Shown here piece by piece: positions 15,409 to 63,864 of a stretch of DNA of 64,000 nt (positions within the stretch are counted from its first letter, which is position 1; each line of letters starts with the position of its first letter). Under the pieces are notes generated by a model that made no database searches, was not told the origin of the DNA, and saw only the letters and a list, made by a program, of their open reading frames with translations. The stretch is from the NCBI GenBank assembly GCA_009839835.1, contig VXOY01000010.1:4025-68024 (forward strand), in the 5' to 3' direction. Both the position numbers and the translations under genes were made by a program. Origin of the DNA: Candidatus Spechtbacteria bacterium SB0662_bin_43. Lineage in GTDB: Bacteria; Patescibacteriota; Minisyncoccia; Spechtbacterales; 2-12-FULL-38-22.

Positions 15409-15415
15409 TAAAGTT

Positions 15416-15485
15416 AGTTTACATCTCTTGACGAGATATAAACTAAATCGCATTTTAGTTTATATCTATAGGTAAGATGTAAACT
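15416..15485. promoter_or_regulatory. Nested perfect palindrome (A-B-loop-B'-A') in the hsdR / AlbA_2-gene spacer; candidate operator or RNA hairpin
   Basis: agtttacatct(15416-26) ... gatataaactaaa(15435-47) tcgca tttagtttatatc(15454-66) ... agatgtaaact(15475-85). A further gatataaacta copy at ~15558. Confidence 0.4.
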
Positions 15486-15597
15486 AAAATAAAAGATAGT
15501 TTTTGTTGACTGATGAAATCTGAGTTAGGTCGCGATTTAATGTATAGTGATAGGCGTGATATAAACTATTGTCCAAAAATATGCCATAATAAATAGC

Positions 15598-17031: not shown

Positions 17032-17040
17032 GAGTTTTAC

Positions 17041-19512: not shown

Positions 19513-19529
19513 TGGCAGGATGATTATTT

Positions 19530-20234: not shown

Positions 20235-20362
20235 TATAATAAGTGCCAGTCATCTTATCATTAATTTAATACGTTCTTTAAAAGCGATAAATTTATTTTG
20301 CGATATAATAAGAAGATGGTGTGTTATCTAGAGACGACGAGAGATACTAAATTAGAGTCATT

Positions 20363-22081
20363 ATGAGGTATACAAAATTTACAATTCAGAACTATAAGGG
20401 AATAGTTGGTCCGCTTATTGTTGATACTCATAAAATATCCCTCATGCCAATTATTGGAGTCAATGAGTGTGGTAAAACTACAATTTTGCAGGCAATTTTC
20501 GGTTTTGATTATTCTAATGATGTTTTCAATAAGACTGTTCAGCATTTGGAGGATATACATAATTTATATGAAACTAGTGATCAAACTCCCATCATCAGTG
20601 CGGAGATTGAGATAACAAATGATGAAATAAAAGATATTTTGGAAGAATTAGTTAATGATAATCAATGGTCTGATAAGGCACAGGCATATTTAGGATACTG
20701 TAAAGATATAAGTTTTACGTTTGCTATTGATAGAAATATGAGGACACGCAAGTATAATATTAAGTATAGGAAATTTACAGACAAAAATTTTAATCATGTA
20801 TTTGCTAAATCCATTATAGAAAAACTACCTTTCATTCTTTTCTTTGATGATTTTCGTGATAATATAGAAGAAAAAATTGAGATTAAAAAAGATTCTGACG
20901 GTAATCTCAGTGGATGGCTTGCGATAGTAGATCGCCTCTTTCGGGTTGCAGATGAAAATTTTGATATCCTACAGCTACCTAGCCTGGAGGAACGTAAGCA
21001 AAAAACAATTTTGGCCGCAGTAAATAAATTACTTAATGACACTCTAACACAAGAATGGCAGAATTTTAGACTTGATGACAAAGAGGCCCTGGAAATACAA
21101 GTGGACTATAAGCAGGAATCGGAGATGGTGGCGAATGGACAACCCGTACATAGGCACTTTGTGAGGTTTGATGTCGTAGAGAAAGATAAGGATGGCTATA
21201 AACATTTCTTTTTCGTTAGAAATCGTAGCAAGGGATTTTTCTGGTTTTTTAACTTTGTGATGAAATTGGAGTTCAATCCTAAATTAGTAGATAGTGCAGA
21301 AGGTGCAATTTATTTATTGGATGAACCAGGATCGTATCTGCATGCATCCGCACAAACAAAGCTATGCGAGAAATTGAAGTCATTGTCTGGTACCAATATA
21401 GTTTTGTACTGCACCCATTCTCATTATCTTCTTGATCCTAACGTAATACCATTCAACAACATCAAGGTGGCAGAGAAGAATCCCAGAAATTTTGCAATAA
21501 GGTTATTTCCCATTCATCAAGCTAGTGTATCTAGGAAAAATTCCAGATCAGCATTTCAGCCAATCATGGATGCACTCAAGATTAACCCCTTCGCACTAGA
21601 TATTAATCCTAATGAATGTGTGCTGATTGTTGAAGGTATAGATGATCATTATGCTTTTGAGATGTTGAAGGGCGATAGAAACGTTAAAATCCTGCCAGGA
21701 GTAGGAGCAGATTCTATACGGTATTTCATTTCACTAATGATTGCGTGGGGAGTTGATTATAGAGCATTGTGGGATAATGATCCAGTTGGGGCAAAAGCGA
21801 AAAAATCGGCAGGAGAGTTTTTCGGCGAAGTTGAATATAAAGATAAATTTTATTTGCTCCCACACGAAAATACCAAAAAGAAAAAGACCATTCTCCAAGA
21901 TTTATTTGATGGAGATGACATTTCCATCATTAAAAAAGAGCTGAGTTTACCCAAAAATACATCATTTAGTAGAGTTATCCAATCTTTATTTCATTCTGAC
22001 AAAAGACAACATGTTTTAAAGAAAGTATCTAAAAAAACAAAAGATAATTTTAAAAGAGTATTTATGATACTGAGTCTTTAA
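20363..22081 (+). CDS. OLD-family ATP-dependent endonuclease (ABC-type ATPase + Toprim)
   Basis: Walker A GVNECGKTT, Walker B/D-loop AIYLLDEPGSYLHASAQ, H-loop YCTHSHY. C-terminal Toprim VLIVEGIDDHYAFE ... ALWDNDPVG. 572 aa, like P2 Old / GajA. Confidence 0.8.
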   Translation: MRYTKFTIQNYKGIVGPLIVDTHKISLMPIIGVNECGKTTILQAIFGFDYSNDVFNKTVQHLEDIHNLYETSDQTPIISAEIEITNDEIKDILEELVNDNQWSDKAQAYLGYCKDISFTFAIDRNMRTRKYNIKYRKFTDKNFNHVFAKSIIEKLPFILFFDDFRDNIEEKIEIKKDSDGNLSGWLAIVDRLFRVADENFDILQLPSLEERKQKTILAAVNKLLNDTLTQEWQNFRLDDKEALEIQVDYKQESEMVANGQPVHRHFVRFDVVEKDKDGYKHFFFVRNRSKGFFWFFNFVMKLEFNPKLVDSAEGAIYLLDEPGSYLHASAQTKLCEKLKSLSGTNIVLYCTHSHYLLDPNVIPFNNIKVAEKNPRNFAIRLFPIHQASVSRKNSRSAFQPIMDALKINPFALDINPNECVLIVEGIDDHYAFEMLKGDRNVKILPGVGADSIRYFISLMIAWGVDYRALWDNDPVGAKAKKSAGEFFGEVEYKDKFYLLPHENTKKKKTILQDLFDGDDISIIKKELSLPKNTSFSRVIQSLFHSDKRQHVLKKVSKKTKDNFKRVFMILSL

Positions 22082-22249
22082 TGTTTGTCTTGTGGAATAC
22101 GTGTGGAAGGATTGGGTATTGTATATTTTGGTGGTGTGATGTATAATGATTGAACCGAAATGTACAAGGTATATTTTGGTGTTCTTTGAAAATTGAATAC
22201 GAGTAAATAGTTATACAACAACCATTTATAGTTGTTTCGAATATTTTTT

Positions 22250-23707
<1,458 letters not shown>

Positions 23708-24031
23708 ACATTTTTTTGTAGTTTTTTTCTTTTCTCTATCTTTTTTGAAAAGAGGAAAATGAAGTTGTCGACCAGATAGTATGTTTTGTGTAGTAGTGAT
23801 TTTCCATTGTTCTTTGATGATGGAATTTGATCTACGAACACAACACGTACAACAGCGATGAGGCAGGAATGGTACTTTCATATTCGTATGAAAGTACCAT
23901 TCCTTGCCTTGTCTCTGTATGCTGAAATGAGGGAAAGCATTTTCTTTCTCTGCTTGTAGGCAAGCTACACAGGAGTATGAACCTGTATTTCATATAATAT
24001 TCGGAACAACTATGAGTGGTTGTGTAACCTC

Positions 24032-24061
24032 AAAAAACCCTGATTTTATCAGGGTTTTTTG
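24032..24061. terminator. Bidirectional Rho-independent terminator
   Basis: caaaaaaccctga-tttta-tcagggtttttt. Confidence 0.6.
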
Positions 24062-24144
24062 AGAACAGAGATTTATTTGATAGAGTGCAATATGCCCAAA
24101 TTATATTTTGGTGTTTTCAGAAAGGTAGTATATGATAAATGTGA

Positions 24145-32045: not shown

Positions 32046-32103
32046 GCCTTCGCATTTGAAGGCTTCTCTATGGTGTTGAGACGCTCAACACCATAGAGAA
32101 GCC
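32046..32103 (-). promoter_or_regulatory. Two overlapping, mutually exclusive hairpins in the atpB-atpE spacer (candidate attenuator / processing / stability element)
   Basis: gccttc-gcattt-gaaggc (32046-63) overlaps the 20-bp stem ggcttctctatggtgttgag-acg-ctcaacaccatagagaagcc (32061-32103), which abuts the atpB stop. Further upstream (TA)n palindrome acaagtatatatatatacttgt at 32001-22. Confidence 0.45.
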
Positions 32104-32104
32104 C

Positions 32105-32989
32105 TTAATGTTCTGCTTCTGTTGTTGCAACTTGTATAAAGATAAGTGTGAGCATTGAGAATACCAACGCTTGGATAAATCCTACAAATATTTCTAATCC
32201 ATAAGACGGCAGTGGGGCAATATATGCTAATAGTCCCAATATACTGATAAGAAGAACTTCTCCTGCAAAGACATTCCCGAATAGACGAAAAGAGAACGAT
32301 ATAATTTTTGATAGTTCTCCAAAAAGCTCCAAGATGCCCACAAAAAAAAGGATAGGGCTTGCAAACGTGATGTATTTACTCAGGTGTGCCTTTTTCCCAA
32401 TAGCCCTAATAGCAAAGAAATGGGTTGCTACCACTGATATGGCTGCTAACGCAAGGGTCATATTGAGGTCAGCGTACGTAGAACGAAACAGATGAACAGC
32501 TTCTCCGTCTTGATTAACAACATCAATACTACCAACACCAGGAAGAAGCCCTAACCAGTTTGAAAGCAAGATAAAGAGAAAAAAAGTCGCGATAAGAGGG
32601 AATGCTTGCTCTGCTTTGCGGCGAGACCCTAAAATACCGGTCATAAAATTAAGACCGGACTCAACGATTGTTTCTCCAATGTTTTGCAACGTGTGGGGTA
32701 CAAAACGGATACGATAGGTAATCAGTATCCCTATAACAATAAGGAGAGCAATAGTTACCCAGCTCATTATGAGCGAGTTTGTTATTGGAAAAGACCCTAT
32801 AGTAGCAATTGTGTCTGCGTAAAGATGTGGCTTAGGCGTATCTGGTCGCGGGGGAAAAATAGCAAATGAAATCAGTAGTAAAAGACCAATAGCAAGAGGA
32901 ATCTTCGGTATGTCAGAAAAAGTTCTGGGTATGCTCATTTGTGCAAGGAAAATATAACGGATAATAAGCGAAAAATCGTGATTCAGCAA
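32105..32989 (-). CDS. atpB: F-type ATP synthase subunit a
   Basis: Polytopic membrane protein with conserved R in LSFRLFGNVFAGEVLL. Confidence 0.9.
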   Translation of the reverse strand: MLNHDFSLIIRYIFLAQMSIPRTFSDIPKIPLAIGLLLLISFAIFPPRPDTPKPHLYADTIATIGSFPITNSLIMSWVTIALLIVIGILITYRIRFVPHTLQNIGETIVESGLNFMTGILGSRRKAEQAFPLIATFFLFILLSNWLGLLPGVGSIDVVNQDGEAVHLFRSTYADLNMTLALAAISVVATHFFAIRAIGKKAHLSKYITFASPILFFVGILELFGELSKIISFSFRLFGNVFAGEVLLISILGLLAYIAPLPSYGLEIFVGFIQALVFSMLTLIFIQVATTEAEH

Positions 32990-34056: not shown

Positions 34057-34512
34057 ATGGGAAAAAGCGTCCGTTATGATACATCCTTTGGCGTTGTCCC
34101 TGTGTTGCAAGAGCAAGCAGAGTGGTATTTTCTTCTCATACAACACCAGACAAGCGACCCTTCCGAAAAAGGGCACTGGTCATTTCCAAAGGGACATAAG
34201 GAGAGTGGCGAAACAGACATTGAAACAGCAGTTCGGGAATTGAAAGAGGAAACAGGCATCGTTGATATGAGGCTGCACGATGAATGTGTTTTTGAGGAGC
34301 GTTACTCGTTTTGTGTTGATGGCATAGATGTGTATAAAACGGTAGTGTATTTTTTGTGCGTTGTAAAAAATCGCAACGTCGCTATTCAGATAGACGAAGT
34401 TGCAGACTATCAATGGGTTGCGTACGAAGACGCCTTACAAAAAGCGTCTTACGATAACACGCGAAACATTATTACGCAGGTGAATCGTGTTTTGCGCACA
34501 GGAAGTTTTTAA
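34057..34512 (+). CDS. NUDIX hydrolase
   Basis: Nudix box GHWSFPKGHKESGETDIETAVRELKEETGI. Confidence 0.85.
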   Translation: MGKSVRYDTSFGVVPVLQEQAEWYFLLIQHQTSDPSEKGHWSFPKGHKESGETDIETAVRELKEETGIVDMRLHDECVFEERYSFCVDGIDVYKTVVYFLCVVKNRNVAIQIDEVADYQWVAYEDALQKASYDNTRNIITQVNRVLRTGSF

Positions 34513-37638: not shown

Positions 37639-37681
37639 GGCTCCTATTGAGTACCCGCTGTACTCAATAGGAGCCTTTTTG
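37639..37681 (+). terminator. Rho-independent terminator
   Basis: ggctcctattgagtac-ccgctg-tactcaataggagcc-tttttg. Confidence 0.7.
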
Positions 37682-40081: not shown

Positions 40082-40513
40082 ATGCTTACAATGATAGACA
40101 ATACGTTCCAAGAAATAAGAGCCCAAGGTAAAAAACTTACCAAAACACGTAGGGCTGTTATCAAGATGCTCTGTCGTTCACATCGCTTACTCACCGCCCC
40201 TGAGATACAGGAAAAGCTGAATCAGCAAGGTATTTCTGTCAATAAAACTTCTGTATATAGAGAACTGGAATTCTTAACGAGTCAAAAAGTTATACAGCAA
40301 GTGAGTATCAGCCCAGGGGTAACTCATTATGAGTCAGCCCTTCGTTCTCACCACCATCATCTCGTATGTACTGGCTGCGGAGATGCTACAGACATTGACA
40401 CGAAAGAGCTTGAAAAACACGTACAGAATATACAGACCAAGGCACAACAGCAAGGGTTCAGAGTACGAGACCATTCATTAGAATTTTATGGTCTGTGCGC
40501 CAATTGTAAATAA
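40082..40513 (+). CDS. Fur-family metalloregulator (Fur/Zur/PerR)
   Basis: wHTH region TAPEIQEKLNQQGISVNKTSVYRELEFL. Metal site HHHHLVCTGCG ... CANC. Confidence 0.8.
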   Translation: MLTMIDNTFQEIRAQGKKLTKTRRAVIKMLCRSHRLLTAPEIQEKLNQQGISVNKTSVYRELEFLTSQKVIQQVSISPGVTHYESALRSHHHHLVCTGCGDATDIDTKELEKHVQNIQTKAQQQGFRVRDHSLEFYGLCANCK

Positions 40514-45443: not shown

Positions 45444-45512
45444 GTATGGACAGATTGTATAGACGTTGTATCAATGTACGAGTGTAAGGTATTGGCTGCA
45501 ATGCTACAAGTA

Positions 45513-45541
45513 TTGACTTTTTGACAAAAGTATGCTATAAT
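45513..45541 (+). promoter_or_regulatory. Near-consensus sigma70 promoter TTGACT-17-TATAAT
   Basis: -35 45513-18, spacer 17 nt, -10 45536-41; ~95-nt leader to GTG start with GGGGAGGG SD-like. Confidence 0.55.
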
Positions 45542-45639
45542 ACACATACAGACGATGAGAGATGGGCAAGATGGTGGATGATTCTTACTCTCTCTCTCTG
45601 TATTAGTCACACTGACTGCATCACGGGGAGGGAAAAACC

Positions 45640-46359
45640 GTGAACTTCATCAAAACAGGCTTTGGGCGAGCCTTGATCGCTCTTTCCGTGGGTCTAACAG
45701 CTCTTGTCGGCGTTGTCGCCATTGCCTCGGCAGATGGCGGACAACACCACCCTTCTGGACCGCCAGACTCGTCCCAGTTCGTCTGGTTGACGCAGGACGA
45801 GTTCGAAGAGGCGTGCGACATGGAAGTTCTCGTCACCGTGCACCAGGACGATGTCTATTGGGCGCAACAGGACTACTTTGTGGGTCCTACTACCCATGTG
45901 GCAGGACGCTGGGAACCTGTGTTCTTCGCAGAAGTCGCTCCTGGGGATGATCTGTGTGCCACCGTCAGCGTTTTCGTGAATATGGAAATCAGCCTCTTGT
46001 CCGACGAGGTTCCTGGAGCACTACTGACTGGCAACGAGACCGACTGGTATAGGGCATGCTCACGTCACAGCGAGTTGTCTATCGGCTTGTCTGTTGGCAT
46101 CGCCTGCTGGGGGTACGAACTTATCTTCTTGGGTCTGTATCACGGAAATTTCCTGCATGCAGCCTACCAGGTTCGTCCGCCTGCATGGCATCGCGATCGC
46201 TCGATTACCACGTACTACGGATTCGAGTACCAAGTGGAGAGCTTCACGTTGAGCTACTTCACTGAATTCGCCCTCAGGCAGAGCGTCATCTCAGGTGTTT
46301 CGGTTCTCATCGTTGACGCACGAGACGCCATCAACGAGAGCAGCGTCACGACAAATTGA
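45640..46359 (+). CDS. GC-rich secreted hypothetical protein (GTG start)
   Basis: Signal-peptide-like LIALSVGLTALVGVVAIASA; ~56% GC; no family. Confidence 0.55.
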   Translation: MNFIKTGFGRALIALSVGLTALVGVVAIASADGGQHHPSGPPDSSQFVWLTQDEFEEACDMEVLVTVHQDDVYWAQQDYFVGPTTHVAGRWEPVFFAEVAPGDDLCATVSVFVNMEISLLSDEVPGALLTGNETDWYRACSRHSELSIGLSVGIACWGYELIFLGLYHGNFLHAAYQVRPPAWHRDRSITTYYGFEYQVESFTLSYFTEFALRQSVISGVSVLIVDARDAINESSVTTN

Positions 46360-46410
46360 TGACTGCCCTCAATCCAGATTCCGTCTGCGACTTCATCCAC
46401 CGCAGATGCA

Positions 46411-46452
46411 AACCCTCTTACTTGCGTTCAGCGAGCAAGAGGGTTTATTGAT
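46411..46452 (+). terminator. Terminator hairpin
   Basis: aaccctctt-acttgcgttcagcgagc-aagagggtt-tattgatttt. Confidence 0.5.
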
Positions 46453-46553
46453 TTTAATGAAGGAGTAGAGATTATTTCTGGTATGGGTCTGCTTGCGGGT
46501 AAAAACTTGTGTTTCCTCACCTGTGCTATTTTAATCAAGAAAATACAGTAGTG

Positions 46554-46625
46554 CTCCCCGGGTAGGATTCGAACCTACAACCCGCTCCTTAACAGGGAGA
46601 CGCTCTACCATTGAGCTACCGGGGA
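46554..46625 (-). tRNA. tRNA-Asn (anticodon GTT)
   Basis: Minus-strand read tccccgg-tagctcaatggtagagc-...cctGTTaagg...-ggttcgaatcctac-ccgggga. Anticodon loop CUGUUAA. No encoded CCA. Confidence 0.85.
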
Positions 46626-46737
46626 ATAGTTGTGTTTTGTATATTTTACGACTTTCTTATTATACCTTCTTTTATCTTTCTGACAATAGATATTCTTTTC
46701 CGGTGCGCATTAAAAGAGTATAGGTTGTGGTGTTTTT

Positions 46738-47259
46738 TTGATAGAGTATGGTACAAACAAGTATATGATAGCGTTATTGGAAAACATACGGAGTATGCAT
46801 AATGTTGGTTCTGTTTTTAGAACCTGTGATGGGGTAGGGGTGAAGAAGGTGTACCTCTGTGGCTATACTCCTGCTCCTGTGCACGAGATATTAGGACACA
46901 AAAGACCTCAAATTGAGAAGGTTGCTTTGGGGAGTACCGATACTGTTGCGTGGGAAAAAGTTTCTGTTGCGTGGCGATTGGTGGAGCGATTGAAGAAGGA
47001 GAAGTACACGATTATGGCTCTGGAACAAAGCAGTGCAGCGGTTTCTCTGGACACAGTGTCTTTGTCCAAGGGTGAGTGGGATACGACCGTGCTTGTTGTT
47101 GGAAATGAGATTGAGGGCGTGAGTAAGCCTGTATTAAAAAGAGCAGATACTATCGTGGATATTCCTATGTTGGGAGCAAAGCGTTCCTTGAATGTTTCTG
47201 TTGCGTTTGGTGTTGCAGTGTACACGTTACTATTTTCAATAAAGAGAGAGGAGGGGTGA
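46738..47259 (+). CDS. SpoU/TrmH-family RNA 2'-O-methyltransferase
   Basis: HNVGSVFRTCDGVGV ... VVGNEIEGVS ... NVSVAFGVAVY SPOUT blocks. Confidence 0.75.
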   Translation: MIEYGTNKYMIALLENIRSMHNVGSVFRTCDGVGVKKVYLCGYTPAPVHEILGHKRPQIEKVALGSTDTVAWEKVSVAWRLVERLKKEKYTIMALEQSSAAVSLDTVSLSKGEWDTTVLVVGNEIEGVSKPVLKRADTIVDIPMLGAKRSLNVSVAFGVAVYTLLFSIKREEG

Positions 47260-47359: not shown

Positions 47360-48019
47360 ATGAGCCAGTCTCGTAGTGCTCGTGAGACCAGGTTGCAGCA
47401 CGAGCAGCAACAAGAAGGCATCCAAGGGGAAGATGTGGAGGCGTTAAATCCACTTTCTGTCCTCGGGAGTGTGAAGATCCTTCTGGCTGGTGCTGACACC
47501 ACAATCCAGAAGGATCTGCAGAAGTTTGAGGATTTTGTACACAGAACGCAGGAAACAATCAACGAGAGTCCGTTCGCAAACAACAATCTTGTACGGTTGA
47601 TTGCGTACAAGGTGATTCTGGTCGTGTTGCACAAATACCTTGTCAACCGTTCTTTCATCAAGCCCTACAAAGGGTTTGTGGACTCGGTGTTTCGGGGTAT
47701 TTACACTTTCACGACCGTGTCGCTGGTCTCAAAAGCAACTCCGTCACTGGTTGATAGGCGTGTCCGAGAGTCGTACTACGACATTACCTACAACATCGTT
47801 CGTGTCTTCTTGAAGAAAGAGTACGACCACGACGCTGTTGTCAGTATCGTTGAGGACATTGTTCGTGAATACGAGGCACAGTGCAGCGCGCTTGAGAACG
47901 GCGAAGCGCACGAGCACGATTCCCAGCACCGTTCCACAATCCTTGCCCAGTGTATTGTGAACCGTCTGTTCACAGAATATTGGGAAACACAATTTGATGT
48001 CCGTGTTTTTCCAGGCTGA
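47360..48019 (+). CDS. GC-rich hypothetical protein
   Basis: 219-aa ORF, ~52% GC, GAAGGGA leader; no family. Confidence 0.5.
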   Translation: MSQSRSARETRLQHEQQQEGIQGEDVEALNPLSVLGSVKILLAGADTTIQKDLQKFEDFVHRTQETINESPFANNNLVRLIAYKVILVVLHKYLVNRSFIKPYKGFVDSVFRGIYTFTTVSLVSKATPSLVDRRVRESYYDITYNIVRVFLKKEYDHDAVVSIVEDIVREYEAQCSALENGEAHEHDSQHRSTILAQCIVNRLFTEYWETQFDVRVFPG

Positions 48020-48142
48020 GGTGCGTTGTTGCATTAAGGTACTTTACTTTCAATCACAAGACAGTACGCGTCATCACCTCGAACCCTATGTATAGGACTG
48101 CTCTCAGCACTCGTGGCTGGAGGAGGCATTATGCATCATCCA

Positions 48143-48171
48143 CACCCTATGTATAGGGTGTTTCTTTTTTT
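48143..48171 (+). terminator. Rho-independent terminator
   Basis: caccctat-gt-atagggtg-tttcttttttt. Confidence 0.6.
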
Positions 48172-48221: not shown

Positions 48222-48323
48222 AGAGAATACGATTTTACTTTTTTATGCCCAGCTTATGTATAAAGACAATTTCATATACAGTGGTGGTAGTTTATGCATA
48301 AAAAAGTAAAATCGTATTCTCTC
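48222..48323. repeat. Family-B long-hairpin intergenic element, copy 1 (27-bp perfect stem)
   Basis: agagaatacgattttacttttttatgc ... cccagcttatgtataaagacaatttcatatacagtggtggtagttta ... gcataaaaaagtaaaatcgtattctct. Confidence 0.65.
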
Positions 48324-48418
48324 TAAAGTGTCGTGTGTTTTATTACAATACTACGTTTTTGGTATAATAGTATGATATACATAGGAAAAGGGGAGAGAAA
48401 TAAGGATAATATTATGAT

Positions 48419-49162
48419 ATGGATCGCGAACGGATAAAAAAACAGGGTATCATTTTTTTGCTTACTATCTGTATTGTGTGCGGTGTTAGTGCGATAGGCA
48501 TTGTGCTCGTACAAACGTTGCAGGTCAGCGAACAGGTTTTGATCGTCCGATACGAAGACACGGAAAGCATACAAGAAGCAGAAAAGCTGGGCGTTGATTT
48601 TCTGGAGGTAGGGGAGTTGATGACTGTACCACTGGGAGATGATCGGTATCGTGTTGGGGCGTTTGTTACAAATCCGAATAAAAATTGGATTGCTCAGTCG
48701 TTTGAATACAATGTTATAGCAGACACTGTTCCTCAACGTCATATTGCAGCAGGGGTGAGTAGTGTTGGTATGGCGCAGGATGTGTTGTTGGTTGCCGATG
48801 TGTTTGTTGATGAGTTTGCTCTTTACGATGTAGCGTTTGTAATACACCAGGTTGATTGGGAACCGCGAGACAATAGTCGTGCTATAGTACGGGTTCGGAA
48901 TCCTATATTTGAGTACGGTAGTCGCAACGGAACGTTTTTCGTTGAGGTTTCAGGCACTCTTGTGAACGACTCTGATTCGTTCGTACACGAAGGCTCTCTC
49001 GGTATCATTGGAACTGATACGAGTGGAGATACAACGTTACTTGGAGAAACGAAGTTTTACTCGTTGCATCCTTCGTCTCAACAACATTTTACGTTGCAAT
49101 ACGAGGCTGATGAGGATGTCGTGGTACACGATATCCGTTTTGTTATCTCTTCATTAGAGTAG
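48419..49162 (+). CDS. Hypothetical membrane-anchored protein
   Basis: N-terminal TM helix IIFLLTICIVCGVSAIGIVLV; no family. Confidence 0.5.
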   Translation: MDRERIKKQGIIFLLTICIVCGVSAIGIVLVQTLQVSEQVLIVRYEDTESIQEAEKLGVDFLEVGELMTVPLGDDRYRVGAFVTNPNKNWIAQSFEYNVIADTVPQRHIAAGVSSVGMAQDVLLVADVFVDEFALYDVAFVIHQVDWEPRDNSRAIVRVRNPIFEYGSRNGTFFVEVSGTLVNDSDSFVHEGSLGIIGTDTSGDTTLLGETKFYSLHPSSQQHFTLQYEADEDVVVHDIRFVISSLE

Positions 49163-50286
49163 TGTGTATGGTTTGGTCGTGGATACTATCTTTGAAAAAT
49201 CACGATTGGGTACTGAATGGCGCGTCTTGTGTTGTGATATGTATTGGGTTGCTGTCGCTTTTTAGTGCTGGGACTGACCAGTTCTATAAACAGATTATTT
49301 GGATTTTTTTGGGAGGCATCTTGTTTCTTATAGTGAGTTCGCTTGATTACCGCATTTTTTCTGCTCATTTCTTTCCTGCACTTGCGTTGTATCTCGTGAG
49401 TGTTTTGGGGATTGTTGCTGTTGATCTTGTTGGCATTACTGTTCGCGGGAGCGAACGGTGGATTGATACAGGACTATTTCTGATAGAACCTGTTGAACCT
49501 CTGAAAATAGCGTTGATTTTGATATTGGCAAAGTATTTCTCGGTGCGGAACAGAGAGGTGCATAAGGCAAGAAACGTCATTGTGCCCGTGATTTACTTCT
49601 TTATCCCTGCGTTTCTGGTTTTTCTACAGCCCGACCTTGGTTCGCTCATCGTTCTATTCGGTATTTGGCTTGGGATGGTTATTGTTGCAGGGACAAAAAT
49701 AAGACACTCTTTCGTCATTGTATTGGGTGGAATATCTTTGTCTGTGATAGCGTGGTTATTTTTTCTGTACGATTACCAAAAAGAGAGAATTATATCGTTT
49801 TTGAATCCCTCGCTTGATCCTCTGGGTTCAAGCTACAATGCGATTCAGTCTGTTATTACTGTTTCGTCTGGTGGTTTATGGGGCAAGGGATTAGGGCAGG
49901 GAACTCAATCTCAGTTAGGTTTTTTGCCTGAAGCAACAACCGATTTTATTTACGCAGCAATCGTGGAAGAAATGGGCATTATTGTTGGGTGTCTTATCAT
50001 TGTTCTGTTCTGTGTTATCGTGTGGAGGCTGTGTCGCATAGCGTTGCGGGCGAGGAGTAATTTTGCGCGCATTGCGGTTTTTGGAGTTGCGCTTCTGATA
50101 GCGATACAGGCTGGTTTCAATATCGGTATGGTTGTCGGAATCCTGCCTATTACTGGACTCACGCTTCCGTTGATGAGCTATGGCGGGAGTAGCATGGTAA
50201 CGATATGCGTTGCGTTGGGAATCGCACAAAGCGTGCATAGAAATTCGTACGTAGAGTACGAAAAAACTGTTATTGCGTTGGAGTAG
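49162..50286 (+). CDS. SEDS-family peptidoglycan glycosyltransferase (FtsW/RodA)
   Basis: 10-TM profile with conserved GLTLPLMSYGGSSMV C-terminal block. Confidence 0.85.
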   Translation: MCMVWSWILSLKNHDWVLNGASCVVICIGLLSLFSAGTDQFYKQIIWIFLGGILFLIVSSLDYRIFSAHFFPALALYLVSVLGIVAVDLVGITVRGSERWIDTGLFLIEPVEPLKIALILILAKYFSVRNREVHKARNVIVPVIYFFIPAFLVFLQPDLGSLIVLFGIWLGMVIVAGTKIRHSFVIVLGGISLSVIAWLFFLYDYQKERIISFLNPSLDPLGSSYNAIQSVITVSSGGLWGKGLGQGTQSQLGFLPEATTDFIYAAIVEEMGIIVGCLIIVLFCVIVWRLCRIALRARSNFARIAVFGVALLIAIQAGFNIGMVVGILPITGLTLPLMSYGGSSMVTICVALGIAQSVHRNSYVEYEKTVIALE

Positions 50287-50436
50287 GTGGTTGCCGCGTC
50301 ATTGAAGCACAGAATCAGATAACAGGGGTATTGACAAAATAGTAAAAGTATATTATAGGAAAGGTGCAGATGCGTCACTGCATTATAAAAGCGCGCAAGA
50401 AACCAGTGAGTCGGGTCAGCAAGAAAGGATACAGCA

Positions 50437-52188
50437 ATGTCCGACCAACACACTGTGAGTGGGGGGTCGCAACGACGTCGGTCGGCGTTGTTGTCTCTCC
50501 TTATGCTCTTCACTATCGCAGCACTTGGGCTCGGCGCTTTCGCCGCGTACATGGTGTTGCGGAGCGAGGAGACGCAAGAGGGTCTGCCGCCGTTGACCGT
50601 GATGGTGCAAGACCACGAAGGAGAGCCGGTCAAGCTCGCAACCGTCGCAATTGAGCCTCTGGGCTCAACCGACCGGATGGAGCTTGTTTCCAGGCAGACC
50701 GACCATCGCGGAATGGTCTTTCTGCGCCCCAACGGGTCGTGGGACCAGGACACCGTGTCGTCAATCGAGATGATCGTGGATGTCAACGACGATGGGATGT
50801 CTGAGTACTCCGCAGTTCTCACGCTTCTGGGCGAAGTGTGGGTAGCCAATAAGTCGCATCCCTGGCTGGCTATCACGACCGAGGGTCTGGTGGCTACGCT
50901 GGAGGAAGGTCTCGTGATGAGCGAGGCTGAGGGTGACGATTCAAGTGCTACCAACGACCAGCTCATTGTGGCAGAGGAAGTCACAACAGAAGAGACCGTA
51001 GCCGTTGCAACAACGCAGCGGTCAGGCTCGCGACAACCTCAGTCACAGCAGCCCGCACAACCAGAGACTGTTGCAGCGCAGCAAGAGCGGCAATTCACAT
51101 TCCCAGTGGTTCAGACACTGAGTGGCGTGACCGTGTCGTTCAACTGTGGTGACACTGGGGTGTCGGCAACGCTCGAGTCGTTCGAAGTCCGGCTCAGTGT
51201 CGCGGAGGATGGTCGCATCGTTGCGATTATCACCGTTATTGAGAGCGAGGTCAATCCAGACCTCGTAGGTGAGTCGTTCGTCTTTGATCTCGAGGAGAAC
51301 GGGTTTGAAAGCTCGATTCGAGTTGACGACTACTCACTCTCCGATCTTCGTTCCCACACCTCGTCAATGATCCGAGAGGTCGGCAAAGCCGAACTCGAGA
51401 ATCGGCGAACAGCGATTCTCGAAGCGAACGATTTCCGGTGTTTCTATGGCAGAGCGACTGTGGAGCGCGCAGTTGAGCACTCATGCCCGGGTGAGCTTGG
51501 TGGAACGATTTCCACCACTCCCGTGGTTGTTACTATCAACCGCGACACCATCGAAAACACTCCGGTGATTACCGATGGTGGTACGGCTGGTACGTACCCC
51601 TTGAGTGCCATCACGGTTTTGGGCGATCGCGCTACGGGCCAACAGGACGCAGACAACTTTGCCTCTGCTATCGCGGATCAGGTGGCGCAACATCGCTACA
51701 ACATCGCGCTTGCGAGAGTGAAGGCGCAGTGTCTCACTGACCAGGGCAGCGAAGATGTCGTTGGGCAGGGTGACGACACCCTGCAGGAGGACGACATGCT
51801 TGAGGAGGCCGAAGACGACCTCTTAGAGGCCGACGAGGACACCTCTTCTTCAAGCCCAGGGTCTGGCGCTGGAGAGCCGTTGCCTATCATGGCATCAATT
51901 CAGCGAGTCCAGATGTACGTCACTCTGTCTGATGGCACCAGGGTAGATATGGAACCGTTCGAGGCGGTGGTCGTGATCGACCCCGACCTCATTGTGACGG
52001 CAGCCATTGACAACGCACTGGTCCTGGACATCGTGAGTTACGGGCTTCCTGAGTCGGTGAACGCAAGCCAGGCAACGCAGCGGTTCGCGTTCCTGATGCT
52101 CAACACCTTGATTGCTGTTGAGCGACAACAGCGAGCCGAGGCGTACGCCAGTCTGCATGGCATTACGGACTACACAGTGCCTAAGTAG
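50437..52188 (+). CDS. GC-rich (~58%) membrane-anchored acidic hypothetical protein
   Basis: LLSLLMLFTIAALGLGAFAAYMVL anchor; D/E-rich stretches; AGAAAGGAT leader. Confidence 0.55.
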   Translation: MSDQHTVSGGSQRRRSALLSLLMLFTIAALGLGAFAAYMVLRSEETQEGLPPLTVMVQDHEGEPVKLATVAIEPLGSTDRMELVSRQTDHRGMVFLRPNGSWDQDTVSSIEMIVDVNDDGMSEYSAVLTLLGEVWVANKSHPWLAITTEGLVATLEEGLVMSEAEGDDSSATNDQLIVAEEVTTEETVAVATTQRSGSRQPQSQQPAQPETVAAQQERQFTFPVVQTLSGVTVSFNCGDTGVSATLESFEVRLSVAEDGRIVAIITVIESEVNPDLVGESFVFDLEENGFESSIRVDDYSLSDLRSHTSSMIREVGKAELENRRTAILEANDFRCFYGRATVERAVEHSCPGELGGTISTTPVVVTINRDTIENTPVITDGGTAGTYPLSAITVLGDRATGQQDADNFASAIADQVAQHRYNIALARVKAQCLTDQGSEDVVGQGDDTLQEDDMLEEAEDDLLEADEDTSSSSPGSGAGEPLPIMASIQRVQMYVTLSDGTRVDMEPFEAVVVIDPDLIVTAAIDNALVLDIVSYGLPESVNASQATQRFAFLMLNTLIAVERQQRAEAYASLHGITDYTVPK

Positions 52189-52281
52189 TTCGCGCCTCTA
52201 CGGGCGGAGCATTCATTTGCTCCGCCCGTTCCATTTTTAATCTCATTCTTTTTTTTAGTGCAGAGATTTTCTCATAGAGAG

Positions 52282-52384
52282 TATAGACGATGGTATTTAC
52301 TTTTTTATGCCAAGGTCATCTATGAAACAATTGTATCTATATAGGTAGTATTTATGCATAAAAAAGCAAATACCATCGTCTATA
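52282..52384. repeat. Family-B long-hairpin intergenic element, copy 2 (29-bp stem, one mismatch)
   Basis: tatagacgatggtatttacttttttatgc-caagg...gtagtattta-tgcataaaaaagcaaataccatcgtctata. Confidence 0.6.
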
Positions 52385-52497
52385 ATGTATAACTTGTAGC
52401 GAACAATAAGAGAGTTTTATAGATATAAACGAATTTTTACAATGGGGATTTATCCAGTATCGTAAACGAGCAAGATGGTGTATACTTATAAGAGTAT

Positions 52498-53196
52498 ATG
52501 ATGAAAAGCATTAAAACTATTTTACGGGGACACGTGAAAGACGCTGTGTACGCTGCGAACGATGGAGCTGTAACAACCTTTGCAGTTGTTGCAGGAGTTG
52601 TTGGAGCCTCATTGGGTAAGCCTGAACTTTTGATTCTTGGGTTTGCAAGCCTGTTTGCCGATGGTTTTTCTATGGCAACAGGTAATTTTTTAGGAACGCG
52701 ATCTGAAAGCGATCAATACGTGCACGAAAAGGAAGCAATGAAGAAAGAATTCAGCGGAGATGGGCGCCTGGCGAAAGAAGATGCGGGCAAGTTTCTGAAA
52801 GAAAGGGGTTTTTCAGACCAAGACGCAGAACAATTGTCTGCGGTGATGGTCAGGAACAAGCCATTTTTCCTTGACATTATGATATCGCATCGCTTGGGTA
52901 TCAGCGACAGCAACACAAAAGACGCGTTGCGTAGTGCTGTGATAACGTTTCTTTCATTTTTATTCGCAGGTATTATTCCACTTCTGCCCTATATCTTTTT
53001 GAGTAGCCAAGATACTTCGCATAATTTTGTGTGGGCGTGTGTTTTCACCGGTGTCGCGCTTTTTGGTATTGGCGCGCTTCGGACGTTGTACTCGGATAAG
53101 AAGTGGTGGAGTGGAGGGTTTGAGATGTTGCTTGTTGGAGGCGTTGCAGCAATTATCGCGTATGCAGCAGGGTATGCGATTCAAGGAATCGTTTAG
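52498..53196 (+). CDS. VIT1/CCC1-family (putative Fe/Mn transporter) membrane protein
   Basis: ANDGAVTTFAVVAGVVGA N-terminal VIT block and C-terminal hydrophobic half. Confidence 0.7.
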   Translation: MMKSIKTILRGHVKDAVYAANDGAVTTFAVVAGVVGASLGKPELLILGFASLFADGFSMATGNFLGTRSESDQYVHEKEAMKKEFSGDGRLAKEDAGKFLKERGFSDQDAEQLSAVMVRNKPFFLDIMISHRLGISDSNTKDALRSAVITFLSFLFAGIIPLLPYIFLSSQDTSHNFVWACVFTGVALFGIGALRTLYSDKKWWSGGFEMLLVGGVAAIIAYAAGYAIQGIV

Positions 53197-53226
53197 CAGC
53201 ATCTCTATTACGAAACTATCAACGTA

Positions 53227-53308
53227 GAATTTTCTTTTTTATGCCCAGCTCACTACAAAGACAATCTTGTGTACGGTAGTGGCATTGTATGCATAAAAAA
53301 GAAAATCC
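53227..53308. repeat. Family-B long-hairpin intergenic element, copy 3 (shorter stem)
   Basis: gaattttcttttttatgc-ccagctcactacaaagacaatcttgtgtacggtagtggcattgta-tgcataaaaaagaaaatcc. Confidence 0.6.
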
Positions 53309-53376
53309 TCCCGCTGATACTCATTAATATATACACAAACAGCGCAGTGTTCGTTATCATTTAATTCGTTATTTTT

Positions 53377-58035: not shown

Positions 58036-59172
58036 ATGACAGCGAAATCCAAAAAACGACAATTAGAAAAAGCAAAACAACGCAACAATAAGGCGAGTCG
58101 CGAGGCGTTTTTTGATAAATTGAAAACAACAGGACACGAACCATTGCCTGACCCTACAAAGTTTAGAATAGGCAACGTCTTGAAACCCTTGTTTCTCCTC
58201 GGGGTTCTTGCCCTTGTACTCTTTTTCGGATATCAATCTCTCGTTGATTCCGATAGTGGGAGTATTGGATCGCAGGACAATAGTGGCAATACCAACACTG
58301 CTGTTGTACCTGATGATACGCAGACCCAAGATGACAAAGATAACACATCCAACAATGATAACATTAGCAGCGATACAGGTGATTTCTCGGTTGCTATCAG
58401 GAGTAGTATTGCTATTTCCGAGCCTACAACCATATCGTATGGCTTACCTTCGTCTCTATCAGCCGCAGAGGTTGCATTATTGGATAGCGAACTCCACCTT
58501 GTTGATAAAGATGGCGCGTACATTGGCTATATTACAGATTTGCCCTTGAGTGACACGAGTTTTGAGTGGAATCCTCAAGTTGTGTATCAAGAAAAAGGGA
58601 GCGAGGTTATTCAGGCACCACAGCAAGGACTCTATCACTTGATGATAGCGTTACGCCCCAATGACCAAGCAGAAACCCCACTGTCTGAATTGGAGCAGAC
58701 CACAATAAGCAATACGTTCGATATTGAGTACGATGAATCAGTAGAGGAGTCTCCATTTCGATGCTTTAGCCTTCGAGAATACAATCAGATACGAGGGTAC
58801 TCGTCGATAGTGAACCTCTTAGAGGAACGAGGTTTTACAGTGAGCGGGCAGGAAACGGCGTGTTATTCACCAGATCAATCGCCAGGAGAGTCGTCGCCAG
58901 ACCAAGCAGTAATGATAGTTCTTATGAACGAGCGTTCAGAACGTGGGTATCCTTTGATATTCCGCTTCGTCATAAAGAAATACTCAGAGGACGATAGAAC
59001 AGAGGTAGGTGCAGCTCAGGCAGTATATGCTATTCCGCGCGACCAAGAGCTAACGATTAACTCACTGAGCGTAGGGCGCAGACAGGGCGCTATTGTACCC
59101 CTTGTTGTGAATGGTTGGTCGCTGTTCAATTACAATTTTGTTACTAATGTTATTACCGCCGTTGCTGGATAG
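58036..59172 (+). CDS. Hypothetical membrane-anchored/secreted protein inserted between the two transketolase genes
   Basis: Basic N-terminus, TM helix PLFLLGVLALVLFFGY, S/T/D-rich linker; no family. Confidence 0.5.
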   Translation: MTAKSKKRQLEKAKQRNNKASREAFFDKLKTTGHEPLPDPTKFRIGNVLKPLFLLGVLALVLFFGYQSLVDSDSGSIGSQDNSGNTNTAVVPDDTQTQDDKDNTSNNDNISSDTGDFSVAIRSSIAISEPTTISYGLPSSLSAAEVALLDSELHLVDKDGAYIGYITDLPLSDTSFEWNPQVVYQEKGSEVIQAPQQGLYHLMIALRPNDQAETPLSELEQTTISNTFDIEYDESVEESPFRCFSLREYNQIRGYSSIVNLLEERGFTVSGQETACYSPDQSPGESSPDQAVMIVLMNERSERGYPLIFRFVIKKYSEDDRTEVGAAQAVYAIPRDQELTINSLSVGRRQGAIVPLVVNGWSLFNYNFVTNVITAVAG

Positions 59173-63832: not shown

Positions 63833-63864
63833 AAAAATCTCTCTATGTAATAGAGAGATTTTTT
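63833..63864 (+). terminator. Rho-independent terminator
   Basis: aaaaatctctcta-tgtaa-tagagagatttttt. Confidence 0.6.

What the first reader, a model, noticed from the sequence alone, without database searches (positions are those of the whole stretch)
48222..53308. Family-B long-hairpin elements (3 copies) with compensatory stem changes - structured RNA or palindromic mobile unit
Copies at 48222-48323, 52282-52384 and 53227-53308 share an invariant inner stem ttttttatgc/gcataaaaaa. They also share loop motifs atgcc[c/a]ag, aaagacaat / gaaacaat and ggtagt.

The outer 10-18 bp of each stem differ completely between copies yet stay perfectly complementary within a copy. Inside the loop, copies 1 and 3 swap tgtata/tataca for cactac/gtagtg.

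That is the signature of selection on RNA secondary structure (or of an element that regenerates its palindrome on insertion), not of a simple terminator: the U-tracts are inside the stem and no T-run follows.

All copies sit just after plus-strand genes, two of them GC-rich hypotheticals (47360 and 50437); copy 3 follows the VIT1 gene.
Basis: seen in the sequence. Interest (0 to 1): 0.65.

Follow-up and report, generated by a model that had tools for sequence, protein, structure and literature searches.

The report
Three-copy long-hairpin repeat, CPR bacterium
Three copies of a small non-coding hairpin sit between genes of an uncultured sponge-associated Spechtbacteria (CPR) bacterium; they share a conserved asymmetric core, each has its own well-paired outer stem, and the family matches no catalogued RNA or mobile-element family, but its function is still unknown.

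Summary
Three co-oriented copies (48222-48322, 52282-52384, 53217-53319) share an invariant 11-bp inverted repeat, CTTTTTTATGC/GCATAAAAAAG, around a 45-47-nt asymmetric loop (3 hits, 0 expected by chance). The outer stems have unrelated sequences: 27 bp perfect in copy 1, 29 bp with one mismatch in copy 2, decayed in copy 3.

The host is the MAG 'Candidatus Spechtbacteria bacterium SB0662_bin_43'. Two further strains carry all three copies.
- The inner repeat never changes.
- Copy 1's stem is unchanged while its upstream flank changes.
- One strain has an exactly paired G-C to A-T switch in copy 2.
- Copy 3's right arm changes without compensation.

Between copies the loops are 61-74% identical, but the outer arms are at chance level (about 25%). 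The arms were therefore not inherited with the core. They are specific to each site.

My best reading is a locally copied palindromic core. Its long stem either existed before as a native hairpin or was made by fold-back/template-switch copying, and arm-to-arm correction or selection keeps it paired.

No relatives turned up in Rfam, phage or plasmid records, genome or metagenome contigs, or relatives with about 60% VIT1 identity. No transposase or Tas gene lies nearby. Canonical terminators precede copies 1 and 2, so the element is not a terminator. An RNA-level role is neither shown nor excluded. Interest is moderate.

The parts
48222..48322 (+). Copy 1. Outer arms 48222-48237 / 48307-48322; invariant inner repeat 48238-48248 / 48296-48306; 47-nt loop 48249-48295. 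The stem is a perfect 27 bp.
   Evidence: 116 bits. The stem is identical in three strains (0/54 changes), while the spacer just upstream has 6 changes in the BPAM22-1 strain.
52282..52384 (+). Copy 2. Outer arms 52282-52299 / 52367-52384; inner repeat 52300-52310 / 52356-52366; 45-nt loop. The stem is 29 bp with one A.C mismatch in this strain (52299/52367).
   Evidence: 105 bits. Both other strains have T at 52367, giving a perfect stem. Strain L139 has the paired change 52289 G>A with 52377 C>T.
53217..53319 (+). Copy 3. Inner repeat 53234-53244 / 53291-53301; 46-nt loop. The outer stem is decayed (strictly paired part 53226-53309). It lies between VIT1 and GAPDH.
   Evidence: 89 bits. Between strains there are 5 loop changes and 5 right-arm changes, and no change in the left arm or the inner repeat. 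Relatives with about 60% VIT1 identity keep the VIT1-GAPDH adjacency with 28-78-nt spacers and no element.
48142..48171 (+). Context, not part of the element: canonical intrinsic terminator of the upstream 219-aa gene, 60 nt before copy 1.
   Evidence: 8-bp stem, TTCTTTTTTT tail.
52200..52239 (+). Context, not part of the element: canonical intrinsic terminator of the upstream 583-aa gene, 52 nt before copy 2.
   Evidence: 12-bp stem with 9 G-C pairs, TCCATTTTTA tail.

Best explanation
This is a small, lineage-restricted, non-coding palindromic repeat. Its copied unit is only the core: a conserved inverted repeat of about 15 bp ((W)TTTWC-TTTTTTATGC / GCATAAAAAA-GWAAA(W)) around an asymmetric loop of about 46 nt.

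The core has been copied locally into three neighbouring intergenic spacers. The long outer stem is specific to each site. It is either a native long AT-rich hairpin of this genome whose tip received the core, or it was created in place when DNA synthesis primed from the folded inner repeat copied one flank in inverted orientation (fold-back or template-switch synthesis).

The same arm-to-arm templating, selection for a long hairpin, or both, then keeps the two arms complementary. Where this lapses, as in copy 3, the outer stem decays while the inner repeat persists.

What is shown:
- the anatomy of the three copies;
- the site-specific outer arms;
- a sequence-constrained inner repeat;
- one paired change that arose in place;
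- uncompensated decay in copy 3;
- absence of the element from relatives.

What is inferred:
- the copying mechanism;
- any cellular role. The likeliest consequence is a hairpin of at least 27 bp in single-stranded DNA, or in any read-through RNA. In RNA it would be an RNase III substrate lying between a terminator and the next promoter.
For: - Core versus arms: loops are 61-74% identical between copies, the inner repeat is 100% identical, and the outermost 12 stem positions are 8-33% identical (mean 25%) with transversions dominating. Local alignments of the flanks and arms are not significant (p 0.08-0.75).
- Rates between strains: the stems of copies 1-2 change more slowly than the loops. 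The loops change at about 55-80% of the third-codon-position rate. Arms inherited with the core should therefore be at least as similar as the loops, and they are not.
- Copies 1-2 have 27- and 29-bp Watson-Crick stems with almost no G.U pairs.
- The paired G-C to A-T change in L139 copy 2 and the 0/54 stem changes in copy 1 show that the arms do not evolve independently.
- Template switching is the published explanation for keeping short inverted repeats perfect in bacteria (PMC5941160, PMC7202029).
- The genome carries other unique long perfect hairpins with 3-6-nt loops, for example 23865-23904 (18 bp, AT-rich), which could serve as recipients.
- Three copies fall within 5.1 kb and none in about 73 kb more of the same genome (P about 0.012), which suggests local copying.
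- Copies 1-2 lie behind intrinsic terminators.
- No conserved reading frame exists on either strand (read from the sequences; the BPAM22-1 copy 1 also has a 1-nt loop insertion).
Against: - No empty site or presence/absence polymorphism was found, so copying or insertion has not been observed directly.
- No transposase, HUH/Y1, integrase or Nop-domain gene lies in the window or its extensions, and there are no target-site duplications.
- All copies share one orientation, which is also that of the flanking genes. The core has sequence-conserved motifs. Both facts fit a strand-specific function (RNA, or a protein reading one strand) that this explanation does not need.
- The inner repeat shows 0 changes in 132 compared positions between strains and is identical in all copies. 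That points to a function for resident copies rather than a purely selfish or mutational origin.
- The paired change comes from a 4x long-read contig (L139).
- There are only three paralogues and three strains.
Confidence: 0.4

Rival explanations
1. A structured RNA acting in cis or made as a small RNA. The hairpin would be transcribed, either as read-through from upstream genes or from its own promoter. Its long duplex plus conserved inner stem and loop would be recognised by a protein such as RNase III or another dsRNA-binding factor, to process, insulate or stabilise neighbouring transcripts. The pairing would be maintained by compensatory evolution.
For: - Stem covariation well above the controls.
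- A paired change arising in place, and stem conservation compared with the flank.
- Uniform orientation, the same as the flanking genes.
- A conserved apical helix and loop motifs.
- The stems of copies 1-2 exceed the roughly 20 bp needed by RNase III, and an RNase III gene is in the window at 4058-4756.
- Five of six transition mismatches would be G.U on the minus-strand RNA.
Against: - Copies 1-2 lie 52-60 nt after good intrinsic terminators and before the next promoters.
- No consistent promoter was found for either strand. The spacer upstream of copy 1 is the least conserved part of that intergenic region.
- There are almost no G.U pairs in the two intact copies.
- RNA selection cannot create the unrelated arms in the first place.
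- Copy 3's outer stem decays on the + strand.
- No Rfam family matches. Only sub-threshold miRNA-hairpin matches appear, at 25-31 bits against gathering scores of 60-140.
Confidence: 0.3
2. A miniature mobile element of about 70-80 nt that specifically targets the tips of existing hairpins or palindromes. A hairpin- or cruciform-specific enzyme encoded elsewhere in the genome would insert it. The outer stems would then be host hairpins with their own role. (This overlaps with one branch of the best explanation, but here insertion is by a true transposase.)
For: - Site-specific arms, a conserved core and a TIR-like inner repeat of 11-15 bp.
- The genome has comparable unique AT-rich perfect hairpins.
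- The element is absent from the VIT1-GAPDH spacer of relatives.
- From my own knowledge: insertion sequences that target palindromic units are known, for example IS1397 in enterobacterial PUs.
Against: - No transposase lies in about 78 kb.
- There are no target duplications and no remnant of an original hairpin loop on either side of the core. The junctions are symmetric: TTTWC/GWAAA.
- Only three clustered copies are known.
- No copy was found in any public collection outside this species.
Confidence: 0.12
3. Stand-alone guide-RNA-like units related to the stem-loop form of TIGR arrays (box C/D-like RNAs bound by Tas/Nop proteins). These arrays occur in CPR bacteria and have variable palindromic stems around conserved loop motifs.
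For: There is an architectural resemblance: 'variable but consistently palindromic' stems flank units with conserved motifs, and TIGR systems are reported in Patescibacteria (PMC12045711). The loop can be read as conserved-variable-conserved-variable-conserved.
Against: - The units are not in tandem. They are 3.96 kb and 0.84 kb apart, with housekeeping genes between them.
- No box C (RUGAUGA) occurs on either strand of any copy. The only CTGA lies in the right outer arm of copy 3, not in a loop.
- No Nop-domain protein is in the window or its extensions.
- The 'variable' loop segments are homologous between copies, so they are not spacers.
Confidence: 0.03
4. DNA operator or architectural sites for the downstream promoters. 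A protein would bind the two inner half-sites, or a cruciform, to regulate the 247aa-RodA-583aa operon, VIT1 and the GAPDH operon.
For: - Each copy ends about 14-50 nt before a promoter-like sequence.
- The element-to-start-codon region of copy 1 is 100% conserved between strains.
- The inner repeat is conserved at the sequence level.
Against: - The half-sites are 45-47 nt apart.
- Site-specific but paired outer arms are not explained by binding to double-stranded DNA.
- The downstream genes have no evident common function.
- No other single or paired occurrences of the 11-mer exist in the window.
Confidence: 0.07
5. Unusual transcription terminators of the upstream genes.
For: The position is 3' of + strand genes, and the hairpins are very stable.
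Against: No U-tract follows the stem. The T and A tracts are inside it. Canonical terminators already precede copies 1-2.
Confidence: 0.03

Closest known systems
REP / REPIN elements mobilised by RAYT transposases
   Same: Both are short extragenic palindromic repeats that form long hairpins in single-stranded DNA or mRNA. Both lie between genes, and compensatory changes across the hairpin are common (PMC3116915).
   Different: REPINs conserve the hairpin base (the REP 16-mers) and vary at the apex; here the apex is conserved and the base varies. REPINs occur in tens to hundreds of dispersed copies with a linked RAYT gene. Here there are three clustered copies and no RAYT in about 78 kb.
Bacterial MITEs (for example Correia/NEMIS, RUP, ERIC)
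   Same: Similar in size (about 70-100 nt), in having terminal inverted repeats, in intergenic location and in being non-coding.
   Different: No target-site duplication is present. The DNA adjoining the inverted repeats is an inverted, not a direct, repeat and differs at each site. No autonomous partner is known, and the copy number is very low.
Quasipalindrome correction and palindrome extension by replication template switching (Ripley model)
   Same: It explains perfect Watson-Crick arms, paired changes without G.U intermediates, and arms templated on each other (PMC5941160, PMC7202029).
   Different: It is a mutational process, not an element family. It does not explain the conserved asymmetric core or why the core is present three times.
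Intercistronic RNase III processing hairpins (phage T7 R sites; rRNA operon stems)
   Same: Both are long hairpins with internal loops, placed between co-oriented genes, with partly conserved sequence. This comparison rests on my own knowledge.
   Different: Transcription through these elements is not shown, and two of the three lie behind terminators. T7 sites share lower-stem sequence and do not have site-specific arms.
TIGR-Tas stem-loop arrays
   Same: Both have variable palindromic stems enclosing conserved loop motifs, and TIGR arrays are reported in CPR bacteria (PMC12045711).
   Different: Here there is no tandem array, no box C/D motif pattern and no Tas protein. All three were tested and not met.
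Integron attC sites
   Same: Both are structure-conserved, sequence-variable hairpins at the 3' side of co-oriented genes.
   Different: attC sites conserve the outer R''/R' core sites (RYYYAAC/GTTRRRY), which are absent here. No integrase is present, and the flanking genes are housekeeping genes with conserved synteny.

Membership tests
Intrinsic (Rho-independent) terminator | G+C-rich stem, short loop, and a U-tract directly 3' of the stem | tested here: not met
   The stems are about 30% G+C, the loop is 45-47 nt and no T-run follows. The consensus scan instead places terminators at 48142-48161 and 52200-52229, upstream of copies 1-2.
Any Rfam 15 family | Score at or above the family's gathering threshold | tested here: not met
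   At gathering thresholds the window yields only the 16S rRNA and tRNA-Asn. With permissive E-values there are only generic miRNA-precursor or sRNA hairpin matches, at 11-31 bits against thresholds of 38-245.
REP/REPIN-RAYT | Many dispersed extragenic copies with conserved REP arms at the base of the hairpin | tested here: not met
   Three clustered copies in about 78 kb. The base of the hairpin is the non-conserved part. The rest of the genome could not be read.
REP/REPIN-RAYT | Associated RAYT (Y1 HUH transposase) gene | tested here: inconclusive
   No Y1_Tnp or other transposase domain was found in the window ORFs scanned or in the precomputed Pfam hits of the extensions. The remainder of the genome was not available.
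MITE | Terminal inverted repeats | tested here: met
   An 11-bp invariant inverted repeat plus semi-conserved TTTWC/GWAAA.
MITE | Direct target-site duplication flanking the element | tested here: not met
   No direct repeats occur at the borders of either the core or the full hairpin (sequences). The flanks of the core are inverted repeats.
Integron attC | R''/R' core sites (RYYYAAC ... GTTRRRY) at the ends, and an integron integrase with mobile cassettes | tested here: not met
   No GTTRRRY occurs in any copy on either strand. No integrase is in the window. The flanking genes are RodA, VIT1 and GAPDH, and VIT1-GAPDH synteny is conserved in relatives.
TIGR-Tas stem-loop array | Tandem units; box C / box D motifs flanking two spacers; adjacent Tas (Nop-domain) protein | tested here: not met
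   The units are 3.96 kb and 0.84 kb apart. No RUGAUGA occurs, and no CUGA occurs in any loop. No Nop-domain hit was found (precomputed hits). Features taken from PMC12045711.
RNase III substrate hairpin | About 20 bp or more of near-perfect duplex in a transcribed RNA, with RNase III present | tested here: inconclusive
   The duplex length is met for copies 1-2 (27 and 29 bp). An RNase III gene is present at 4058-4756. Transcription and cleavage cannot be tested with these tools.
IS200/IS605-derived PATE | Distinct subterminal hairpins at the left and right ends, conserved tetranucleotide cleavage/target site, and TnpA(Y1) in the genome | tested here: inconclusive
   The core holds only one short internal helix. 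TTAC/TTTC precedes the T-run, but it is mirrored by GTAA/GAAA, so it is part of the palindrome. No TnpA or TnpB is in the window.

The most novel reading that the evidence does not exclude
A previously undescribed kind of small element in a CPR bacterium. On each copying event its conserved asymmetric core acquires a new, perfectly complementary stem by inverted duplication of the adjoining target DNA. This would be a 'target-site inverted duplication' made by hairpin-primed synthesis, or alternatively a core that homes to the tips of host hairpins. Either way it yields a family defined by a constant apex and site-specific bases, the reverse of REPINs, and possibly one read by a host factor on a single strand.
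Probability: 0.2. Interest if true: 0.7.

Novelty: new variant of a known kind. Interest (0 to 1): 0.4.

Why it matters
CPR/Patescibacteria have tiny, gene-dense genomes, and almost nothing is known about their non-coding repeats or RNA elements.

This family has a constant apex and site-specific, well-paired bases. It would be a compact natural case for separating two sources of apparent 'compensatory' stem evolution. One is selection on RNA structure. The other is DNA-level templating between palindrome arms. That distinction bears on every covariation-based RNA discovery pipeline, because the covariation signal here would pass naive tests although much of it cannot come from descent with compensation.

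If the arms really are made at insertion, this would be a new insertion signature. If the element is only a stable oddity of one species, its value is mainly as a cautionary example.

Tried and rejected
- Exact-pattern scan of 185,579 representative genomes: 21 unrelated chance hits. The source MAG is evidently not in that set.
- Metagenome contigs and viral contigs scanned with a core-plus-loop pattern: 0 hits each.
- Arms-only pattern in metagenome contigs: 106 stretches, none sharing the loop motifs. Most are one conserved human-gut locus, and about 12 belong to an unrelated hairpin family in WGS set VAPK01. Viral contigs gave 0.
- blastn of copy 1 against phage and plasmid collections: nothing meaningful.
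- Rfam at gathering and at permissive thresholds: nothing.
- Covariance model R1 on the window with filters off, on the two extensions of the same genome, and on three relatives' loci: no further or degenerate copies. The remaining hits are generic hairpins.
- Analogous large-loop hairpins in relatives' loci: none.
- Coding potential of the core on both strands: short frames that are not conserved between copies. Rejected.
- Promoter reading of the core on both strands: no consistent -35/-10 pair. Rejected.
- Uptake-sequence idea: the 11-mer occurs only in the three pairs. Rejected.
- Inverton idea: all 9 instances in 3 strains have the same loop orientation. No support.
- Homology between outer arms or flanks of different copies: not significant.
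- Extra matches of the outer arms elsewhere in the window: none.


Full report
**What is in the sequence**

Reading the three sites and aligning them shows a common plan.

- Outer left arm: 16-18 nt, different at each site.
- TTTWC.
- TTTTTTATGC.
- Loop: 45-47 nt.
- GCATAAAAAA.
- GWAAA.
- Outer right arm: the complement of the left arm.

The pattern TTTTTTATGC-N30-60-GCATAAAAAA occurs three times in the window, against 0.00 expected. The invariant inverted repeat is 11 bp long (CTTTTTTATGC/GCATAAAAAAG).

The inverted-repeat finder gives the arm lengths:

| Copy | Arms | Complementarity |
|---|---|---|
| 1 (48222-48322) | 27 nt | 100% |
| 2 (52275-52391) | 36 nt | 89%, with a clean 29-bp stem at 52282-52384 carrying one A.C mismatch |
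| 3 | 19 nt | 95% |

Read further out, copy 3 is a stem of about 29 bp with several mismatches and a 1-nt indel. It is therefore a decayed long hairpin.

The loop is asymmetric, so each copy has an orientation, and all three have the same one. The loops share CCMAG, (A)AGACAAT, GGTAGT and TAT before the right inner arm.

The predicted folds are far more stable than shuffled sequence on both strands, with z-scores of -4.6 to -10.9.

A covariance model built from all available versions and run with filters off finds only these three copies in the 64 kb. All lower hits are unrelated generic hairpins.

**Where the copies sit**

All three are intergenic, among + strand genes.

- Copies 1 and 2 are not at the 3' ends of the upstream genes in a functional sense. 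Canonical intrinsic terminators (48142-48161 with TTCTTTTTTT; 52200-52229 with TCCATTTTTA) lie 60 and 52 nt upstream of them.
- Promoter-like sequences for the next genes follow within about 14-50 nt. One example is TTACAA...TGGTATAAT after copy 1.
- Copy 3 starts 20 nt after the VIT1 stop codon and ends about 60 nt before the GAPDH start.

The neighbouring genes run in this order:

1. a 219-aa orphan;
2. copy 1;
3. a 247-aa orphan, then RodA/FtsW, then a 583-aa orphan;
4. copy 2;
5. VIT1;
6. copy 3;
7. GAPDH, followed by a sugar-phosphate operon.

The 583-aa protein has only two homologues among 5.8 billion proteins.

No ORF in the window, or in the extensions of the same genome, carries a transposase, HUH/Y1, integrase or Nop domain. 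An RNase III gene is present at 4058-4756.

**Which organism, and what relatives show**

Protein names identify the source as the MAG 'Candidatus Spechtbacteria bacterium SB0662_bin_43' (CPR/Patescibacteria). Identical DNA occurs in Logan SRR9841444 and ENA ENGE20-1 assemblies.

Loci L028 and L030 extend the genome by about 10 kb to the right and about 4 kb to the left. They hold no further copy. Three copies thus fall within 5.1 kb of about 78 kb, with P about 0.012 for uniform placement.

Relatives whose VIT1 is 58-61% identical keep VIT1 directly upstream of GAPDH. Their spacers are 28-78 nt, against 180 nt here, and they have no element. The element is therefore an addition in this lineage.

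Searches elsewhere found no relative:

- representative genomes, metagenome contigs and viral contigs;
- phage and plasmid records;
- Rfam.

**Comparison of three strains**

Two other strains could be read. One is BPAM22-1 (loci L140, L137 and L023). The other is a 132-kb long-read contig, of which L139 is a part. Overall DNA identity to the window is 94-98%.

I partitioned the substitutions by region.

| Region | Result |
|---|---|
| Third codon positions | 4.6-9.9% changed |
| Inner repeat | 0 of 132 compared positions changed |
| Copy 1 stem | 0 of 54 positions changed in either strain; the spacer just upstream has 6 changes in BPAM22-1; the loop has 1-2 changes |
| Copy 2 | Window-specific T>C at 52367 creates the A.C mismatch, since both other strains have T. 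L139 has 52289 G>A together with 52377 C>T |
| Copy 3 | 5 loop changes (11%) and 5 right-arm changes; none in the left arm or the inner repeat |

Positions 52289 and 52377 are exact pairing partners (their coordinates sum to 104666, as do 52299 and 52367). This is a clean G-C to A-T replacement in an otherwise unchanged element. By my rough estimate, independent neutral mutations would give such a pair with a probability of only a few per cent.

The arms of the intact copies therefore do not evolve independently. One copy is nevertheless losing its outer stem.

**Covariation statistics and what they mean**

I counted pairs on an alignment of the eight distinct versions, with arms aligned flush to the inner repeat.

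- The 27-pair helix is 94.4% paired.
- Twelve pairs change on both sides, against 1-5 in slid controls.
- No shuffle reaches the observed covariation score.
- Only one pair varies on one side only, and G.U pairs are almost absent.

This signal comes almost entirely from the three paralogues, so the real question is where their different arms came from. answers it.

| Region compared between paralogues | Identity |
|---|---|
| Loops | 73%, 74% and 61% (copy 1 vs copy 3: 10 transitions, 2 transversions) |
| Inner repeat | 100% |
| Outermost 12 stem positions | 8%, 33% and 33% (mostly transversions) |

The arm identity is at chance level, and local alignments of arms plus flanks are not significant. 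Between strains, the loops change at roughly 55-80% of the third-position rate, while the stems of copies 1-2 change more slowly than the loops. Arms inherited with the core and evolving under a pairing constraint should therefore be at least as similar as the loops.

They are not. So the arms were acquired separately at each site, and the copied unit is the core.

**How a site-specific, perfectly paired stem can arise**

I consider two routes. I cannot separate them without an empty site.

(a) The core entered the tip of a pre-existing hairpin. This genome has unique long perfect hairpins with 3-6-nt loops. Examples are 23865-23904 (18 bp, AT-rich), 32056-32108 (25 bp), 37639-37675, 24029-24063 and 63833-63863. 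Against this route, no remnant of an original loop is left at the core borders. The borders are symmetric.

(b) The arms were made in place. A nascent strand ending in the right inner repeat folds back on the left inner repeat. It copies the left flank in inverted orientation and then returns to its template. This is the template-switch process known to perfect short inverted repeats in bacteria (PMC5941160, PMC7202029). It would also explain paired changes without G.U intermediates and the Watson-Crick perfection of copies 1-2.

Either way, the perfect identity of the inner repeat across copies and strains indicates that something reads it by sequence. The partial conservation of the loop motifs points the same way.

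**RNA or DNA?**

For an RNA role:
- The orientation is uniform and matches the flanking genes.
- The apical loop AAGACAAT is conserved and closed by a short helix. That helix is 90% paired, with covarying pairs only in copy 3.
- The duplexes are long enough for RNase III, which the genome encodes.
- Five of six transition mismatches are A.C on the + strand and would be G.U on the minus strand. This is not significant (binomial p about 0.11).

Against an RNA role:
- Terminators lie upstream of two copies.
- No consistent promoter exists on either strand.
- The spacer upstream of copy 1 is the least conserved part of that intergenic region.
- G.U pairs are lacking in the intact copies.
- There is no Rfam relative.

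I rank a DNA-level palindromic repeat first (0.40), which may still have consequences when transcribed. A genuine structured RNA comes second (0.30). The remaining rivals are:
- a transposase-driven element that targets hairpin tips (0.12);
- an operator or architectural DNA site (0.07);
- a TIGR-like RNA (0.03);
- a terminator (0.03).

**Comparison with known families**

The element resembles REPINs in being an extragenic hairpin with compensated positions (PMC3116915). Its conservation gradient is inverted, however. It has three clustered copies and no RAYT in the sequence available.

It has MITE-like inverted repeats but no target duplication.

TIGR stem-loop arrays share the theme of variable palindromic stems around conserved loop motifs, and they occur in CPR bacteria (PMC12045711). 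Their defining features are tandem arrangement, box C/D motifs and a Tas protein. All three were tested and not met (Pfam calls).

The attC core sites are absent.

I therefore file it as a new variant of the general kind 'small intergenic palindromic repeat', not as a member of any named family.

**Caveats**

- Only three paralogues and three closely related strains exist in the data I could reach.
- The rest of the genome could not be read.
- L139 is a 4x long-read contig with indel errors. Mirrored substitution errors are unlikely but not excluded.
- The last base of L137 lies at a contig end inside the palindrome, and I disregarded it.
- Function is not established.

Noticed in passing
window 22246-23718 (+), 23865-23904, 24029-24063: A bacterial 16S rRNA gene stands alone, with no 23S or 5S detected anywhere in the 64 kb (unlinked rRNA genes). 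It is followed by two long perfect hairpins, with 18-bp and 16-bp arms. The second has an A-tract and a T-tract and looks like a bidirectional terminator.
   Followed up: no
window 34285-34377 (+): ARAGORN calls a 93-nt tRNA-Ile(GAT) inside the NUDIX ORF (34057-34512). Rfam does not report it at its gathering threshold, so it is probably a false positive.
   Followed up: no
window 45640-46359, 47360-48019, 50437-52188: These are orphan genes richer in G+C than the genome (55%, 49% and 58%, against 43.5% for the window) and with no Pfam domain. The 583-aa protein has only two homologues (90% and 56% identity) among 5.8 billion proteins. The 247-aa neighbour (48419-49162) has none outside its own 90% cluster.
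   Followed up: partly
window 45444-46740 compared with L139 3710-8282: There is a strain-variable island beside tRNA-Asn (46553-46625, minus strand). The long-read strain carries DUF6941, an SDH-family protease, an HTH protein, an N6/N4 methyltransferase and DUF6996/6997 where this strain has the 239-aa orphan.
   Followed up: partly
window 12871-22081; L028 12668-16440: Two defence-type clusters. In the window: a Type I restriction R subunit, a Schlafen/AlbA_2 protein, a fused HsdM-HsdS and an AAA_15/AbiEii-like ATPase, in a low-GC stretch (37-38%). Just right of the window: RhuM, ThsB_TIR, 8xMP and an AAA_15 ATPase.
   Followed up: no
window 48084-48097 and 48144-48157: The small hairpin core CCCTATGTATAGG occurs twice, 60 nt apart, after the 219-aa gene. 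The second copy forms the terminator and the first has no T-run.
   Followed up: no
window 32056-32108, 37639-37675, 63833-63863; L028 17213-17250: Further unique long perfect hairpins (14-25-bp arms, 3-6-nt loops) lie in intergenic DNA. They matter as possible recipient structures for the core.
   Followed up: partly
loci L033, L034, L036, L050, L056, L066, L075, L097, L107, L113, L133 (WGS set VAPK01): An unrelated long-hairpin repeat family in a metagenome: TAAGCCACCCCCC-CTTTTTTATGCCGATTTGGGTTA-[variable loop]-TAACCCAAATCGGCATAAAAAAG-GGGGGGTGGCTTA. Its stem of about 33 bp is conserved and its loop is variable. It shares the 12-mer with the window's element only because the search demanded the 11-mer.
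   Followed up: partly
window 58036-59172 (+): A 378-aa ORF with no Pfam domain sits between the N-terminal and C-terminal halves of a split transketolase. A 349-aa ORF with no Pfam hit occupies the same position in the relative L027.
   Followed up: no
window 40082-40513 (+): A Fur-family regulator is encoded about 12 kb upstream of the VIT1 iron/manganese transporter. No Fur-box-like sequence was noticed in the elements.
   Followed up: no
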